From assembly GCA_020241865.1 (NCBI GenBank), contig GCA_020241865.1_4709.1: 64,000 bases of DNA, one strand, 5' to 3'. Origin of the DNA: a phage. This document shows positions 25,919-29,187 of this stretch, piece after piece. The position numbers and the translations under genes were made by a program. The notes under the pieces are model-generated. The model did no database searches, was not told the origin of the DNA, and was given only the letters and a program-made list of their open reading frames with translations. Each line of letters starts with the position of its first letter. The first letter of the stretch is position 1.

Positions 25919-26452
25919 TTAAGCTCCTTTCTGTTTGATTGATGATGTTAACCACGATGATCTTACCGTGAAACCCTCGGACTCGTAGAACGCCTGGGCT
26001 TCGTCGTTATCAGCACGAACATCCAGGCCGATAGAATGCCCGCCGCATCGGTAAGCGATGTTACGTGCTTCGTTCATCAAGGCGTGGCCGATCCCGCGTC
26101 CACGGTATTTCGGTTTTACAACAATCGATGTAACATCATGAATGCCCATATGGCTCTCTGTATTCACTTCCAAGAGGCCTACCGGTATCGAAGCGATGGT
26201 GTCGATCATAACGACCAACTTTGCGGTGTCCGGTAAACGCTTCTCTAATTCTAAGGCATCGTACTCGCGTTTTAAATCGGGGATATTCTCAAACATAAAC
26301 GTGGTTGCCCATGCCTCTGATTCTACATCATCGAGAATACGGTACAGCTCACGAATCTGTCGTTTATGTGGGTAAAGGTGTGGATCGGCAGCCGTTGAGG
26401 CGATAACGCAATAGAACGGCCGTTCATTAATAACTACTGTTTTGATGCTCAT
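25919..26452 (-). CDS. GNAT-family N-acetyltransferase
   Basis: 177-aa ORF; acetyl-CoA-binding motif A (VVKPKYRGRGIGHALMNEA) and C-terminal motif B (AFYESEGFTV). Confidence 0.65.
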   Translation of the reverse strand: MSIKTVVINERPFYCVIASTAADPHLYPHKRQIRELYRILDDVESEAWATTFMFENIPDLKREYDALELEKRLPDTAKLVVMIDTIASIPVGLLEVNTESHMGIHDVTSIVVKPKYRGRGIGHALMNEARNIAYRCGGHSIGLDVRADNDEAQAFYESEGFTVRSSWLTSSIKQKGA

Positions 26453-26955
26453 GCTAAAATTCCCTCATTACCTAACAGTCGATTACGGTGACGTCGGTAC
26501 ATTTGACAAAGTGTTGTGATTTGATAAAGTTTGTTATAACGTAATTCGATACGTTTTTGCACCTCTTTCCATGAAAGTTTATCATATTGCCGATAACGAT
26601 GGATTTCATTCAACATCCGAAGACGCGTAGGATCGGTATTCTTTATTGTTACGAGCTTCACGCGTTGGTATCCGCGCTGCAACCCCGATTCAGAATACGT
26701 AATGCCGAACTCATCCTGAATGATAGTAATGATCTCCCGCCATCGGCGCTTCTCGCCGTCACGTAAATGGACAACCCGCGATAAGATATCGTTCCGATTA
26801 CGATGACTCAGTTTAATGTTAAGCATTGAAGCAATCGCGCTAATTGCTCTCTGACTCCGCCCTAACGCCTCACCGATCTCTTTCGATGTCATGACGCCAG
26901 CGTTTCGACGTATGAATGCGATTTCGGTTGTTGTGTATTCTTTACCTGCCGCCAT
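26449..26955 (-). CDS. GcrA-like / sigma-70 region-4-like HTH protein, paralog 1 of 6
   Basis: 168-aa ORF; repeated HTH modules (TTTEIAFIRRNAGVMTSKEIGEALGRSQRAISAI ...) matching the W-x-EE-D...L...IA..LGRT...V...R pattern of paralogs 2-6. Confidence 0.6.
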   Translation of the reverse strand: MAAGKEYTTTEIAFIRRNAGVMTSKEIGEALGRSQRAISAIASMLNIKLSHRNRNDILSRVVHLRDGEKRRWREIITIIQDEFGITYSESGLQRGYQRVKLVTIKNTDPTRLRMLNEIHRYRQYDKLSWKEVQKRIELRYNKLYQITTLCQMYRRHRNRLLGNEGILA

Positions 26956-27419
26956 TTCTTACCACGCGTGTTATAATAGTAACGTTGACAAAGATGTGTG
27001 TGATGGTACTCCCGTTTGAACTCGACATTGATAATGCGAGCAACTTCTCTCCAGCTAACCCCTTCATGTCGAAGTGTCGTGATACGGTCTGAAATTTTGC
27101 ACCATTCACCAGGATCGTATCGTCGCAGTTTATGACGTCGTATTACGGAGGCGACGCTCGCTTTCGAGCGACCAAGATGATTCGACATTCGTTTAATCGA
27201 GTATCTATGGATATTATCGCGAATATAGGAAAGCTCGTTGTCTGTATACGTCGCGTTGGTTCTCGGCGAAGGGAACAATACGTATAACTTATTCTTAATC
27301 GCGCTTTCTGTGCGTTGAAACACGGTAACCAGTTCACTAATCGATGGTCTAGGTATTTGATACGCGTAATTCTCGAGGCGTGAGAGTTCCTCATCTGTCC
27401 AGCGGCGGTATTTGCGCAT
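26889..27419 (-). CDS. GcrA-like HTH protein, paralog 2 of 6
   Basis: Start placed at the internal ATG (MRKYRRWTDEELSRLENY); the track ORF extends to 27503 and would overlap paralog 3; 3' end overlaps paralog 1 by 67 nt. Confidence 0.55.
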   Translation of the reverse strand: MRKYRRWTDEELSRLENYAYQIPRPSISELVTVFQRTESAIKNKLYVLFPSPRTNATYTDNELSYIRDNIHRYSIKRMSNHLGRSKASVASVIRRHKLRRYDPGEWCKISDRITTLRHEGVSWREVARIINVEFKREYHHTHLCQRYYYNTRGKKWRQVKNTQQPKSHSYVETLAS

Positions 27420-27894
27420 GGGCAACTCCTTTGTTTTTCGTGTAATAACACCAACGTTGATACAACGCATGTTTATTCGTTGTAATCCCAAATTTAACAA
27501 CAACGTCGTATGTGATAATATTCCAATTTTGGGTGACGTTAAGTCGTTCCGCGATAAACGCGATAATCGCTTCCCGTTCTTGCTTGGTTAACGCACGACG
27601 AATTCCATTAAGCCGTATAAACTGACGAACCGAGTCATACGAACGGTTTAAATCATACGCAATCTCCCTCAGCGATTTTTGTTTGATTACGGACTTGATG
27701 TACGCACGTTCTTCTTCCGTATACGGTCGATGCTTCTGGCGTTGACGTATTCCCAAACGCCCCAGACACGCGTCGATGCTGGCGTATGTTCGTCCTGTCC
27801 GTTGTGCGATTTCATCAATCGTCAGCGGCGTGTTCAAGTACATGTGTGTAACATCTTTTAACTCATCGTTACGCCACGGCCGAGGTCGTCGCAT
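27391..27894 (-). CDS. GcrA-like HTH protein, paralog 3 of 6
   Basis: 167-aa ORF; WRNDELKDVTHMYLNTPLTIDEIAQRTGRTYASIDACLGRLGI plus a second HTH repeat. Confidence 0.6.
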   Translation of the reverse strand: MRRPRPWRNDELKDVTHMYLNTPLTIDEIAQRTGRTYASIDACLGRLGIRQRQKHRPYTEEERAYIKSVIKQKSLREIAYDLNRSYDSVRQFIRLNGIRRALTKQEREAIIAFIAERLNVTQNWNIITYDVVVKFGITTNKHALYQRWCYYTKNKGVAHAQIPPLDR

Positions 27895-28372
27895 CTTGTA
27901 TCCCTCTTTTCTTTCTATGATGCCACCAACGCTGATAAACAGCTTGCTTCGTCCGTGTTATGCCAAAATGCGCATTAACCCGTTCAGCAATGTGGTACCA
28001 ATCCTGCGTTTCTTCTAACAATGCATCAACGAAGGCTATGAAGATCTTAGTATCATCCTCGCTTAACCGCTTGAAGCCATGGCGGTGTGCTATTGTTCGA
28101 ATACTGTTTGGATCTCTGTTTAAATCGCGTGCGAGCTGTTTGTAACTTTTGTGCTTACAGTGTAGTCTGATATGTTCTAATTCATCGACGCTGAAACGTT
28201 TATGCGGTTTACGGCGTTCGACGTTTAAGTACCTCAACCTTGATTCGATTGCACCGTACGTCGTTTCCATGATTTCCGCGATTTCACGGATTTTTAATTT
28301 CGGGCGACGATCGTATAGTTTCAGCAACTGCTCATCGTACTTACGATTCCATCGTCGTACTGGGGGTTTCAC
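27869..28372 (-). CDS. GcrA-like HTH protein, paralog 4 of 6
   Basis: 167-aa ORF; WNRKYDEQLLKLYDRRPKLKIREIAEIMETTYGAIESRLRYL plus a second repeat. Confidence 0.6.
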   Translation of the reverse strand: MKPPVRRWNRKYDEQLLKLYDRRPKLKIREIAEIMETTYGAIESRLRYLNVERRKPHKRFSVDELEHIRLHCKHKSYKQLARDLNRDPNSIRTIAHRHGFKRLSEDDTKIFIAFVDALLEETQDWYHIAERVNAHFGITRTKQAVYQRWWHHRKKRGIQDATTSAVA

Positions 28373-28374
28373 AA

Positions 28375-28854
28375 CTAGATTTCTCCTGTTCTACGCGTTT
28401 TTAATGCTTGAGTGTAGTAAAGGGTATGAACACCGCTTAACGTGTAATGGGTGTTAAATTCGTTATTGATGATATTCTGTATTCTCTCCCAGGTTTTCTT
28501 CTCTTTTCTAAGAGTATGTATTCGGTGATAGATCATCTCTCGACGTTGCGCTTTGCACGCGATAATACCGTAGCGGTAGCAGAGTTTAGCGATCGCATCC
28601 ACGCTACGATTGAACATTACCGCGGCTTCTTTCACGCTGTGCGTCTTGAGATAATCGGCTAACATCACGCGTTCTTCGAAACAACAATAGCGGTGACGCG
28701 ACGTGAGTTTCCAGCGCTTGCGATTACGGTTAATTCGACCTTGAACCGAACCTTCCGTTCGGCCAAGTCGTACCGCAATCTCTTGCATCGGTATACCGTT
28801 TCGGTACAGGGTAATCAACATCGCATCTTCTTCGGGTGTCCAGTCCTTGACCAT
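28375..28854 (-). CDS. GcrA-like HTH protein, paralog 5 of 6
   Basis: 159-aa ORF; WTPEEDAMLITLYRNGIPMQEIAVRLGRTEGSVQGRINR, the closest match to the GcrA N-terminal domain pattern (W-T-D-E ... L ... G-x-S-x-x-x-I-A-x-x-L-G). Confidence 0.6.
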   Translation of the reverse strand: MVKDWTPEEDAMLITLYRNGIPMQEIAVRLGRTEGSVQGRINRNRKRWKLTSRHRYCCFEERVMLADYLKTHSVKEAAVMFNRSVDAIAKLCYRYGIIACKAQRREMIYHRIHTLRKEKKTWERIQNIINNEFNTHYTLSGVHTLYYTQALKTRRTGEI

Positions 28855-28866
28855 AATGCCACCCCA

Positions 28867-29187
28867 TCAACGTCTTACTTTAAGCGGTATCTTGTTTCGA
28901 AAACAATAACACCGGATGGCATGTACGCTACGATTCATTATTTCAGCAATCTCTTTTAGCGTATGTTTCTTTGCAAGCGTGGCAACCCTAACCCTTTCTT
29001 CTGGCGTATATACTCCCCCACGAGGTGGTAGGTCACCCCGTTGTTTTCTCAACTTGATGTAACGTGCGCGAACAGAGCACGGTGTTCGGTTCATGCAGCG
29101 CGCTACTTCTTTATAGCTCGCTTTTGGTGACGTGCTAAGAATAAGCAGCAGTGTTTCATCTTCTTTATCCGTCCAACATTTACCCAT
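28867..29187 (-). CDS. GcrA-like HTH protein, paralog 6 of 6
   Basis: Start placed at ATG 29185..29187 ([17 protein letters not shown]), preceded by AAGGAG and overlapping the last codons of ligA (translational coupling); the track ORF extends to 29337. Confidence 0.55.

What the first reader, a model, noticed from the sequence alone, without database searches (positions are those of the whole stretch)
26449..29187. Tandem array of six paralogous GcrA-like HTH genes, each with internally duplicated HTH modules
Six consecutive genes of about 105-175 aa all open with W-(T)-x-EE-D-x-x-L and contain two or three copies of an L...IA..LGRT...V..R...L helix-turn-helix unit resembling the GcrA N-terminal domain and sigma-70 region 4. 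Several overlap by start/stop, and the last overlaps ligA. Such an expanded block suggests a set of transcription modulators that could redirect host RNA polymerase at different stages, or a decoy/anti-defence family. It is the most conspicuous paralog expansion in the window.
Basis: partly seen in the sequence, partly recalled or inferred. Interest (0 to 1): 0.7.

Follow-up and report, generated by a model that had tools for sequence, protein, structure and literature searches.

The report
Six tandem-HTH DNA-binding phage genes
A relative of the nucleus-forming E. coli jumbo phage Goslar carries, directly after its DNA ligase gene, a conserved row of six small, very basic proteins, each built from three helix-turn-helix DNA-reading modules. 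They are real genes, early-transcribed in Goslar, and most likely sequence-specific DNA-binding regulators of a known kind, not GcrA or sigma factors.

Summary
Window 26449-29187 (minus strand) carries six consecutive, tightly packed paralogous genes, the counterparts of Goslar gp119-gp114 (92.4% nt identity). Five have an A-B(-C) layout. A and B are demonstrably duplicated HTH units, and C is a third, sequence-distinct three-helix module. The sixth gene is B-C-C'. All six are under purifying selection, and in Goslar RNA-seq their orthologues behave as early genes. They are very basic (pI about 10) and match PHROG 323 ("D5-like transcriptional regulator", archetype T5 D5). The closest solved relative is the archaeal tandem-HTH CRISPR-repeat-binding protein Cbp2 (and Cbp1), followed by c-Myb. 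GcrA and sigma-70 membership fails: only a generic HTH resemblance remains, with no GcrA C-terminal domain and no sigma region 2. The best reading is a panel of sequence-specific dsDNA binders acting as early regulators; whether they target phage or host DNA is open. One new finding: in otherwise 90-92% identical phages, four of the six slots hold anciently diverged alleles (37-57% aa, synonymous sites saturated), while g5 and g1 follow the backbone. Kind: known. Interest: moderate.

The parts
28867..29187 (-). g6 (Goslar gp119 counterpart), 106 aa, units A-B only; first gene of the array; its start overlaps the ligA stop by 8 nt
   Evidence: ORF and sequence. Pfam Myb_DNA-bind_6 35.5 bits and Myb_DNA-binding 32.6 bits, both above gathering score. 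PHROG 323 E 2.8e-19. Orthologues in L002, L014 and L015 are 152-157 aa and carry a C unit.
28375..28854 (-). g5 (gp118 counterpart), 159 aa, A-B-C; conserved allele (89-96% aa in most lineages, 74-76% in L022/L023); absent from lineage L015/L016
   Evidence: (Sigma70_r4_2 35.8 bits; GcrA 15 bits, below cut-off).
27869..28372 (-). g4 (gp117 counterpart), 167 aa, GTG start, A-B-C; hypervariable slot
   Evidence: NCBIfam HTH_Cbp1 match spanning all three units (residues 11-133 to profile 3-121). Only 43-52% aa identity to the allele in L014, L015 and L023.
27391..27894 (-). g3 (gp116 counterpart), 167 aa, A-B-C; hypervariable slot; the protein that was modelled
   Evidence: AF2 model with pLDDT 84.9 and nine helices forming three three-helix bundles. 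PHROG 323 E 2.3e-14. 37% aa identity to the L014 allele with saturated synonymous sites.
26889..27419 (-). g2 (gp115 counterpart), 176 aa, A-B-C plus a 22-aa tail that overlaps g1; hypervariable slot
   Evidence: E 1.3e-18. Identical to database protein P0001. 46% aa identity to the L014 allele, which lacks the tail.
26449..26955 (-). g1 (gp114 counterpart), 168 aa, B-C-C'; most conserved member (87-99% aa in all lineages); the long start at 26955, not the 147-aa start annotated in Goslar
   Evidence: Unit HMMs find one B and two C units. The N-terminal 21 aa are identical in window, Goslar and L002 while the overlapping g2 tail changes. In L014 the long form starts without any overlap. Database homologues P0012-14 keep the long form.
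29180..31249 (-). NAD-dependent DNA ligase (ligA), upstream flank, co-directional and overlapping g6
   Evidence: Pfam ligase domains. Same position in every related locus.
25919..26452 (-). GNAT acetyltransferase, downstream flank, overlapping the g1 stop by 4 nt

Best explanation
The six genes are an old tandem expansion of one ancestral gene. That gene encoded a small, strongly basic protein made of three consecutive three-helix HTH modules (A, B, C) joined by short basic linkers. Such proteins (Cbp1/Cbp2, c-Myb R1R2R3, paired domains, Tc3/mariner DNA-binding domains) lay successive recognition helices into adjacent major-groove segments of double-stranded DNA. They thereby read a long site with high affinity.

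I infer that each paralogue reads its own DNA sequence, because recognition helices differ between paralogues but are comparatively kept within a slot. The proteins are made early, from the same early-class gene block as the ligase. The set then acts as DNA-bound regulators of phage transcription and/or replication timing, in the way the archetype of their PHROG, T5 D5, is required for replication, late transcription and early shut-off.

Shown: gene reality, architecture, homology class, transcription in the early class in Goslar, basic charge, and conservation of the array.

Inferred: dsDNA binding, sequence specificity per slot, the regulatory role, and the phage genome rather than host DNA as the target.
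For: - Homology class. All six match PHROG 323, whose archetype is T5 D5 (E 1.2e-71). The T5 record annotates D5 as a DNA-binding protein required for DNA replication and late transcription.
- The family profile against D5 gives hhalign 88.5%, E 2.7e-6.
- The best solved relative is Cbp2 (2LVS), E 6.2e-10 over units A+B. Next is c-Myb R1R2R3, E 2.8e-4. NCBIfam HTH_Cbp1 aligns over all three units of g4.
- Cbp2/Cbp1 are tandem HTHs with a basic linker that bind specific DNA repeats (PMC3597662).
- Structure. AF2 gives three three-helix bundles (pLDDT 84.9) and a C unit at pLDDT 94. Fold hits are tandem-HTH DNA binders: 2lvs, Tc3, SNAPc Myb, Reb1, Mos1, PAX6. In viral models the hits are endonuclease DNA-binding regions, 'GcrA' and 'D5 protein'.
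- Charge. pI 9.9-10.5, net charge +14 to +18.
- Expression. Goslar gp114-119 are transcribed at similar levels with and without ChmA, log2FC -0.16 to +0.46. Late genes drop by 5-7 log2 units, so these belong to the early class.
- Selection. dN/dS is 0.06-0.35.
- Conservation. The same slot order is found in 15 loci.
- Specificity. Recognition helices are more conserved than first helices between deep alleles (54% vs 38%, Fisher p 0.011). Paralogues share only 20-30% in every element.
Against: - No DNA-binding or localisation data exist for any of the six. None of the Goslar papers consulted mentions them.
- Similarity to D5 is limited to the HTH repeats. D5 is 255 aa and near neutral (pI 6.3), so functional transfer from D5 is weak.
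- The array is not part of the chimallivirus core. It was not found beside the ligase of four other jumbo phages, and tblastn finds it in no other phage genus except as single HTH modules.
- Four slots carry anciently diverged alleles in a 90-92% identical backbone. That is easier to reconcile with conflict or accessory genes than with regulators of a conserved phage programme.
- Phage DNA sits inside a vesicle and then a protein shell, so proteins acting on it must be imported. This is untested here.
- The fold-search E-values for the multidomain and C-unit models against PDB are not significant on their own.
Confidence: 0.5

Rival explanations
1. Conflict-directed DNA binders. The proteins stay in the cytoplasm and bind non-self DNA, meaning the host nucleoid, plasmids/prophages, or the genome of a co-infecting related phage. 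They would silence or mark that DNA (host takeover, anti-defence or inter-phage exclusion). The deep alleles would reflect long-term diversifying or balancing selection.
For: - The genes are in the early class, so on the Goslar time course the proteins could be made before a phage nucleus exists.
- The array is clade-specific, not core, and copy number varies (g5 is missing in L015/L016).
- Four slots hold alleles with saturated synonymous divergence inside a backbone with dS 0.1-0.5. This is the pattern typical of immunity or conflict loci.
- Host DNA persists for tens of minutes in Goslar infection; it is largely degraded only by 60 mpi.
- A chimallivirus HTH protein that binds host DNA is already known: RAY gp094 (PMC10299810).
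Against: - There is no meaningful match to known defence or anti-defence models (one weak hit, E 0.0037).
- dN/dS stays well below 1.
- Recognition helices are relatively conserved within a slot, which argues for stable targets.
- g1 and g5 are as conserved as the backbone.
- The location is inside a replication-gene block directly after the ligase.
Confidence: 0.3
2. RNA-polymerase adaptors. The proteins would be GcrA-like or sigma-region-4-like factors that dock on an RNA polymerase (host or phage) and retarget it stage by stage.
For: - Sigma70_r4_2 scores just above the gathering score in g4 and g5.
- Distant multi-repeat relatives reach the GcrA Pfam threshold.
- A viral 'GcrA cell cycle regulator' model appears among the fold hits.
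- No transcription factor is known for the chimallivirus RNA polymerases.
Against: - GcrA Pfam reaches 15 bits in only one paralogue (cut-off 26.9), and only model positions 2-42 match.
- The GcrA DNA-binding domain in PDB scores E 0.82.
- There is no GcrA C-terminal sigma-binding domain and no sigma region 2 or 3.
- NCBIfam sigma models score 16-19 bits against cut-offs of 43-184.
- Phage transcription in this family is independent of host RNAP.
- The sigma r4 hits are what any compact HTH gives.
Confidence: 0.1
3. Non-functional leftovers. The ORFs would be decaying DNA-binding modules of former homing endonucleases or methylases, or pieces of one long multi-repeat HTH gene that has been broken up.
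For: - The same A-B module occurs in HNH-endonuclease PHROGs, in mycobacteriophage HNH/methylase genes and in viral endonuclease models.
- The closest non-Goslar HMM hits are 300-900-aa proteins with 4-10 tandem A-B stretches.
Against: - Purifying selection acts on all six.
- Gene boundaries and the per-gene A-B-C layout are conserved across lineages with saturated dS.
- The Goslar orthologues are transcribed.
- No nuclease remnant is detectable.
- No frameshift or stop pattern would rejoin the ORFs.
Confidence: 0.03

Closest known systems
Cbp1 / Cbp2, archaeal CRISPR DNA repeat-binding proteins (PDB 2LVS; NCBIfam NF040595 HTH_Cbp1)
   Same: - Small basic proteins made only of two (Cbp2) or three (Cbp1) imperfect HTH repeats joined by basic linkers.
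- Best sequence match among solved structures (E 6.2e-10) and top Foldseek hit.
- The HTH_Cbp1 profile aligns across all three units of g4.
- They work as sequence-specific dsDNA binders that shape transcription (PMC3597662, PMC10883916).
   Different: - Scores (22-24 bits) are far below the equivalog cut-off of 140 bits.
- Cbp1/2 are archaeal and chromosomal, single genes, and bind CRISPR repeats.
- Here there is a phage, a six-gene array, and a third unit of a different sequence type. I ran no CRISPR-array search, and the repeat scan of the window showed nothing array-like.
Bacteriophage T5 D5 protein (T5.118) and PHROG 323 'transcriptional regulator, D5-like'
   Same: - All six match the same PHROG as D5.
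- D5 is also built from repeated W/F-T-P-(D/E)-E ... IA..(F/L)GR HTH units.
- In both phages the gene follows the NAD-dependent ligase with an 8-nt overlap.
- D5 is a DNA-binding protein needed for replication and late transcription (T5 record; McCorquodale 1979 as cited in PMC12630848).
   Different: - D5 is a single 255-aa gene with near-neutral pI (6.3 versus about 10).
- It has a different number of units and no C-type unit.
- Profile similarity is only E 2.7e-6 over about 95 residues.
c-Myb R1R2R3 and other Myb/SANT repeat proteins
   Same: - Three tandem three-helix modules.
- W-T-x-E-E-D opening of the unit.
- Pfam Myb models pass their threshold for g6.
- The family profile hits c-Myb 1H88 at E 2.8e-4, and also Cdc5L and SNAPC4.
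   Different: - Only the first of the three regularly spaced tryptophans is kept (alignment).
- The other five paralogues are below the Myb thresholds.
- Bacterial-virus context.
GcrA (Caulobacter cell-cycle regulator, Pfam PF07750)
   Same: - The N-terminal W-T-(D/E)-E ... HTH unit is of the same broad type.
- Long multi-repeat relatives of the family reach the GcrA threshold.
   Different: - Below threshold in all six.
- E 0.82 to the solved GcrA DNA-binding domain.
- No C-terminal sigma-70-binding domain.
- No evidence of methylation-dependent binding.
Expansion of Myb-type HTH transcription factors in Bacillus phage G-like jumbo phages (Iyer et al. 2021, PMC7824862)
   Same: Precedent for a lineage-specific expansion of Myb-type HTH factors in a jumbo phage. 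The same paper reports 1-15 phage-encoded TFs per jumbo phage.
   Different: Different phage group (RsfA-like, Firmicutes hosts). That paper does not describe a fixed-order array next to the ligase or deep allelic cassettes.

Membership tests
GcrA (PF07750) | Whole-protein score above the Pfam gathering threshold (26.9 bits) | tested here: not met
   Only g5 matches at all, at 15.0 bits and E 0.033. The other five have no hit.
GcrA (PF07750) | C-terminal sigma-70 domain-2-interacting region (model positions about 50-155) | tested here: not met
   The match covers model positions 2-42 only. The C-terminal part of the proteins is a different three-helix unit.
GcrA (PF07750) | Similarity to the solved GcrA DNA-binding domain | tested here: not met
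   Family profile against 5YIU: E 0.82, 12.4 bits.
GcrA (PF07750) | Preference for N6-methyladenine-containing sites | not testable with these tools
   A Dam-like methyltransferase lies 3.3 kb upstream. It is frameshifted here and absent from Goslar, which keeps the array.
Sigma-70 family | Region 4 HTH | tested here: inconclusive
   Sigma70_r4_2 scores 27.1 bits (g4) and 35.8 bits (g5), above the 25.7-bit threshold. The other paralogues are below it. This model matches many unrelated compact HTHs.
Sigma-70 family | Region 2 (core binding and -10 recognition), and full-length family models | tested here: not met
   No Sigma70_r2 hit. NCBIfam sigma models score 16-19 bits against cut-offs of 42.9-183.75.
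Myb/SANT (PF00249, PF13921) | Score above the gathering threshold | tested here: inconclusive
   Met for g6 only (32.6 and 35.5 bits). The family profile hits c-Myb 1H88 at E 2.8e-4. The other paralogues are below threshold.
Myb/SANT (PF00249, PF13921) | Three regularly spaced tryptophans per repeat | tested here: not met
   Only the first W of unit A and one W in unit C are conserved (alignments).
PHROG 323, D5-like transcriptional regulator | Significant match to the family profile | tested here: met
   E 1.5e-10 to 2.8e-19 for all six. T5 D5 itself scores E 1.2e-71.
PHROG 323, D5-like transcriptional regulator | D5 function: dsDNA binding, requirement for replication and late transcription | not testable with these tools
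   Known only from the T5 record annotation.
Cbp1/Cbp2 tandem-HTH proteins (NF040595) | Two or three imperfect HTH repeats joined by basic linkers | tested here: met
   2LVS E 6.2e-10 over units A+B. The AF2 model has three three-helix bundles. Linkers such as RQRQKHRP are basic.
Cbp1/Cbp2 tandem-HTH proteins (NF040595) | Equivalog score (140 bits) and association with CRISPR arrays | tested here: not met
   Scores are 24 and 22 bits. No dedicated CRISPR-array search was run; the direct-repeat scan of the window showed nothing array-like.
Homing endonuclease (HNH and others) with HTH DNA-binding region | Nuclease catalytic domain | tested here: not met
   PHROG HNH families match only through the HTH region. 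No nuclease Pfam domain is found.
Known anti-phage defence proteins (PADLOC) | Match to a defence-system model | tested here: not met
   No hit, except one weak match of g2 (E 0.0037, 14.6 bits).

The most novel reading that the evidence does not exclude
The array is a set of slot-specific DNA readers whose deeply diverged, recombining alleles define 'compatibility types' among co-circulating Goslar-like phages. It would be an immunity-region-like system in a strictly lytic, nucleus-forming phage. Either the factors are the missing promoter- or origin-specificity layer for the phage's own RNA polymerases and replisome, or they bind and silence the DNA of a co-infecting relative or the host. 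Under this reading, swapping the g6 and g4-g3-g2 cassettes would change which genomes are expressed inside a shared cell.
Probability: 0.12. Interest if true: 0.75.

Novelty: new member of a known kind. Interest (0 to 1): 0.38.

Why it matters
In the literature I consulted, the only specificity factor described for the two multisubunit RNA polymerases of nucleus-forming phages is the sigma-like fifth nvRNAP subunit. How these phages time their programme is not described there. A conserved six-gene panel of putative sequence-specific DNA binders, whose Goslar orthologues are early-transcribed, gives concrete candidates. Goslar infects laboratory E. coli and can be knocked down with existing CRISPRi-ART tools (the method used in 10.1101/2023.09.20.558163), so these candidates are testable now. 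The cassette-like allelic diversity also offers natural variants for testing whether the genes serve regulation or conflict. Otherwise the finding is an ordinary paralogue expansion of HTH proteins, already present but unannotated in the published Goslar genome.

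Tried and rejected
- **The search for related loci with the family alignment** failed because there is no conserved 7-10-column stretch. With g3 as a single-protein query it found only Goslar-type contigs.
- **Genome contigs** found nothing with g1.
- **Word-indexed protein search** returned only Goslar-clade proteins.
- **Ligase synteny in other jumbo phages** (Moabite, FLC4-11C, RisingSun, pEa_SNUABM_54): no family member next to the ligase. The ligase-D5 adjacency is therefore shared only with T5 and may be coincidence.
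- **Programmed frameshift joining g2 to g1**: considered because of the 67-nt overlap. I read the overlap sequence and found no X XXY YYZ slippery site. In lineage L014 the two genes do not overlap at all. Rejected.
- **Internal promoters or terminators**: counts do not exceed shuffles.
- **Rfam**: no hit in 24000-32500.
- **Goslar gp120**, as a possible mobile endonuclease explaining the array: no Pfam or PHROG hit and no homologue in the window.
- **Names for the long multi-repeat relatives**: all are 'hypothetical'.
- **Fold search of the C unit alone**: no significant PDB hit, only TM 0.6-0.72 to assorted three-helix DNA-binding domains.
- **Literature**: no paper held mentions gp114-gp119. 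The 1979 D5 paper is not held.

Full report
**What the window is.** The 2.7-kb region is 92.4% identical in DNA to Escherichia phage vB_EcoM_Goslar, positions 118654-121391. Goslar is a nucleus-forming jumbo phage (Chimalliviridae). There the region is annotated as gp114-gp119: five 'hypothetical proteins' and one 'SANT/Myb domain-containing protein'. They lie between an NAD-dependent DNA ligase (gp121) and a GNAT acetyltransferase (gp113). Goslar has one extra gene, gp120 (235 aa, no Pfam or PHROG match), inserted exactly between the ligase stop and the gp119 start. The window and all other relatives lack it.

**Checking the observation.** Six minus-strand ORFs fill 26449-29187. In order of transcription they are:

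| Gene | Coordinates | Length | Units |
|---|---|---|---|
| g6 | 28867-29187 | 106 aa | A-B |
| g5 | 28375-28854 | 159 aa | A-B-C |
| g4 | 27869-28372 (GTG start) | 167 aa | A-B-C |
| g3 | 27391-27894 | 167 aa | A-B-C |
| g2 | 26889-27419 | 176 aa | A-B-C |
| g1 | 26449-26955 | 168 aa | B-C-C' |

- Purine-rich Shine-Dalgarno-like stretches precede the g6, g4, g3 and g2 starts. The g5 and g1 starts have only weak matches.
- The g6 start overlaps the ligA stop by 8 nt. g4/g3, g3/g2 and g2/g1 overlap by 26, 29 and 67 nt, and g1 overlaps the acetyltransferase by 4 nt.
- Promoter-like and terminator-like sites in and around the array do not exceed shuffled controls, and nothing matches Rfam. The six genes therefore read as part of one long co-directional block.
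- Paralogy is far beyond chance. All six match PHROG 323 at E 1.5e-10 to 2.8e-19. Pairwise BLASTP reaches 1e-21 for g3-g4 and 1e-7 for g5-g6.
- A family HMM finds these six ORFs and nothing else in the 64-kb window.

**Anatomy.** The alignment shows three kinds of unit:
- Unit A: W-T-x-E-E-D..L...(I/V).EIA....RT..S(I/V)..R.
- Unit B: Y-T-x-E-E...I......S.KEIA..LNRS..(A/S)(I/V)R.
- Unit C: ...I...I..L.....W.EI...IN.EFG..Y....L.QR(Y/W).

A and B are homologous to each other (hhalign 95.8%, E 7e-9). C is not significantly similar in sequence to either.

An AlphaFold model of g3 (pLDDT 84.9) has nine helices arranged as three three-helix bundles with short basic linkers. The C unit alone folds as a three-helix bundle at pLDDT 94. 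The NCBIfam Cbp1 profile aligns through all three units of g4.

The g6 orthologues in three other lineages are 152-157 aa and do carry a C unit. The window/Goslar form has therefore lost it.

g1 does not open with W-T-x-EE, and the third module is not another copy of the LGRT unit.

**Are they real genes?**
- Against Goslar, and against three more distant lineages, all six show dN/dS of 0.06-0.35. This is the same range as the ligase (0.06-0.10).
- Gene order and boundaries are the same in 15 loci from about nine lineages.
- In published Goslar RNA-seq, gp114-gp119 have read densities similar to their neighbours. They are unaffected by knock-down of the nuclear-shell protein ChmA (log2 fold change -0.16 to +0.46). 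Late genes such as gp005-007 fall by 5-7 log2 units.
- According to that paper, this behaviour marks genes expressed from the early infection vesicle (10.1101/2023.09.20.558163).

**The g1 start.** g1 should start at 26955, not at the 147-aa start annotated in Goslar.
- The 21 extra residues complete the first helix of a B unit.
- They are identical in three lineages, while the overlapping g2 tail changes.
- They are kept in database homologues.
- In lineage L014 they precede a g1 that does not overlap g2 at all.

**What family?**
- Pfam gives only generic HTH matches. Myb models pass their threshold for g6, and Sigma70_r4_2 passes for g4 and g5. GcrA reaches 15 bits in g5 only (cut-off 26.9) and covers only model positions 2-42.
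- A family profile against all PDB sequences puts the archaeal CRISPR-repeat-binding protein Cbp2 (2LVS) first (E 6.2e-10 over A+B). Next come c-Myb R1R2R3 (2.8e-4), Cdc5L and SNAPC4 Myb repeats. The GcrA DNA-binding domain scores E 0.82.
- Foldseek of the three-domain model lists 2lvs, the Tc3 bipartite domain, SNAPc, Reb1, Mos1/SETMAR and PAX6. All are tandem-HTH DNA binders, although E is only 0.1-0.5 because the inter-domain geometry is free.
- Against viral models the hits are significant (14 at E <= 1e-3). They include the Goslar paralogues, endonucleases of BcepSauron and ME3, a 'GcrA cell cycle regulator' and a 'D5 protein'.
- PHROG 323 is built around T5 D5, which scores E 1.2e-71. 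The T5 record describes D5 as a DNA-binding protein required for replication and late transcription. The family profile aligns to D5 residues 134-236 (hhalign 88.5%, E 2.7e-6).
- An exhaustive HMMER search finds 12,724 proteins at E <= 1e-3. Beyond the Goslar clade, the best are 300-900-aa uncharacterised proteins with 4-10 tandem A-B stretches. These do reach the GcrA, Myb and sigma-r4 thresholds.
- In isolated phages the module occurs in Listeria and N4-like 'D5-like regulators', in streptococcal 'GcrA family' regulators, and fused to mycobacteriophage HNH endonucleases and methylases.

The unit is therefore a widespread, portable DNA-binding module. 'GcrA-like' is true only at that level.

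**How it most likely works.** The proteins are very basic (pI 9.9-10.5, net charge +14 to +18). They consist of nothing but three linked HTH modules. This is the design of Cbp1/Cbp2, Myb and paired domains, where each recognition helix occupies a stretch of major groove and basic linkers tether the domains. The result is high-affinity recognition of a long site (PMC3597662). Cbp1 uses this design to organise transcription of CRISPR arrays (PMC10883916).

Within the window the paralogues share only 20-30% identity in every structural element. Between deeply diverged alleles of the same slot, the recognition helices are better kept than the first helices (54% vs 38%, Fisher p 0.011). I read this as six different specificities, each fairly stable.

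Combined with early expression and the D5 precedent, my best explanation is a panel of early, sequence-specific dsDNA-binding regulators. DNA binding itself I rate at about 0.85. I rate action on the phage genome to time transcription or replication at about 0.4-0.5.

Phage L014 is 92% identical to the window through the ligase and 90% from g1 onward. However, nucleotide homology stops about 47 nt into g6, returns only across g5, and stops again across g4-g3-g2.

| Slot or gene | Window vs L014 |
|---|---|
| g6, g4, g3, g2 | 53, 43, 37 and 46% aa identity; pS 0.67-0.80 (saturated) |
| g5, g1 | 89% and 93% aa identity |
| Ligase | 94% aa identity |
| Backbone genes | pS 0.10-0.36 |

- Three allele classes are seen among 15 loci. 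One lineage lacks g5.
- Because dN/dS stays low while dS is saturated, these are ancient alleles exchanged by recombination, not fast in-situ evolution.
- This pattern resembles immunity or conflict loci. It is the main reason I keep a host- or competitor-directed role as a serious rival (0.3).
- No defence or anti-defence model matches meaningfully.

**Against the RNA-polymerase idea.**
- These phages encode two rifampicin-resistant multisubunit polymerases. The non-virion enzyme already has a sigma-like fifth subunit (PMC12908238).
- The six proteins have no sigma region 2 and no GcrA sigma-binding domain.
- NCBIfam sigma models score far below their cut-offs.
- I give this reading 0.1.

**Novelty and score.**
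- The genes exist in the published Goslar genome but are undescribed there. None of the Goslar papers I consulted mentions them.
- Lineage-specific expansions of Myb-type HTH factors in jumbo phages are known (PMC7824862).
- The array is not found next to the ligase of four other jumbo phages.
- I file it as a new member of a known kind. Interest is moderate because it supplies testable transcription-factor candidates in a tractable nucleus-forming phage, and because of the cassette-like allelic structure.

**Caveats.**
- dN/dS values are simple Nei-Gojobori estimates on short genes, some with overlapping frames.
- The AlphaFold alignments were shallow (18 and 10 sequences).
- The helix-conservation test uses few, partly dependent comparisons.
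- Expression data are for Goslar, not for this exact phage.

Noticed in passing
window 32522-33350 (minus strand); poly-G at about 32862-32874: A D12-class (Dam-like) N6-adenine DNA methyltransferase is split into two overlapping ORFs (174 + 158 aa) by a frameshift at a run of 12 G. Relatives with G11 or an interrupted tract have an intact 274-275-aa gene, and two others are also split. Goslar lacks the gene entirely. This is either possible phase variation or a homopolymer sequencing error.
   Followed up: partly
window 29140-28849 (g6) and 28399-26932 (g4-g3-g2), compared with L014, L015, L022, L023: Nucleotide homology to otherwise 90-92% identical phages breaks precisely over four of the six genes. 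These carry 37-57% identical alleles with saturated synonymous sites, while g5 and g1 follow the backbone. Lineage L015/L016 lacks g5.
   Followed up: yes
window 26892-26955; Goslar gp114 (NC_048170 118654-119097): Goslar gp114 is annotated 21 codons too short. The upstream ATG (window 26955) completes an HTH unit and is the conserved frame in the 67-nt overlap with g2.
   Followed up: yes
L001 8743-9450 (Goslar gp120), junction at window about 29187: Goslar has a 235-aa ORFan inserted exactly between the ligase stop and the first array gene. It has no Pfam or PHROG match and no homologue in the window. It is absent from all other relatives examined.
   Followed up: partly
window 25489-25917 (142-aa gene, minus strand): This ORFan, downstream of the acetyltransferase, is also a divergent cassette: 63% aa identity and pS 0.79 against L014, while its neighbours are 92-98% identical. 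It has no Pfam match.
   Followed up: no
window 174-189, 12326, 18251, 25456, 43801, 50138: The motif CAGCATAAACCCTCCC, next to G+C-rich hairpins, occurs 6 times (up to 3 mismatches) against 0.25 expected. One copy sits in the gap between the 142-aa gene (25489-25917) and the next gene downstream, about 1 kb past the end of the array.
   Followed up: partly
L006 11539-13078 (phage T5 ligB-D5): In T5 the D5 gene, archetype of the PHROG matched by all six genes, also follows the NAD-dependent ligase with an 8-nt overlap. This is the same junction geometry as ligA-g6 here. Four other jumbo phages with this ligase lack any such neighbour, so it may be coincidence.
   Followed up: partly
one search hit list (e.g. 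P0021, P0023, P0047, P0098): Thousands of uncharacterised proteins in metagenomes, Bacilli MAGs and even a fungal assembly consist of 4-10 tandem copies of the same A-B HTH pair in one 300-900-aa chain. This looks like an undescribed class of very long tandem-HTH proteins.
   Followed up: partly
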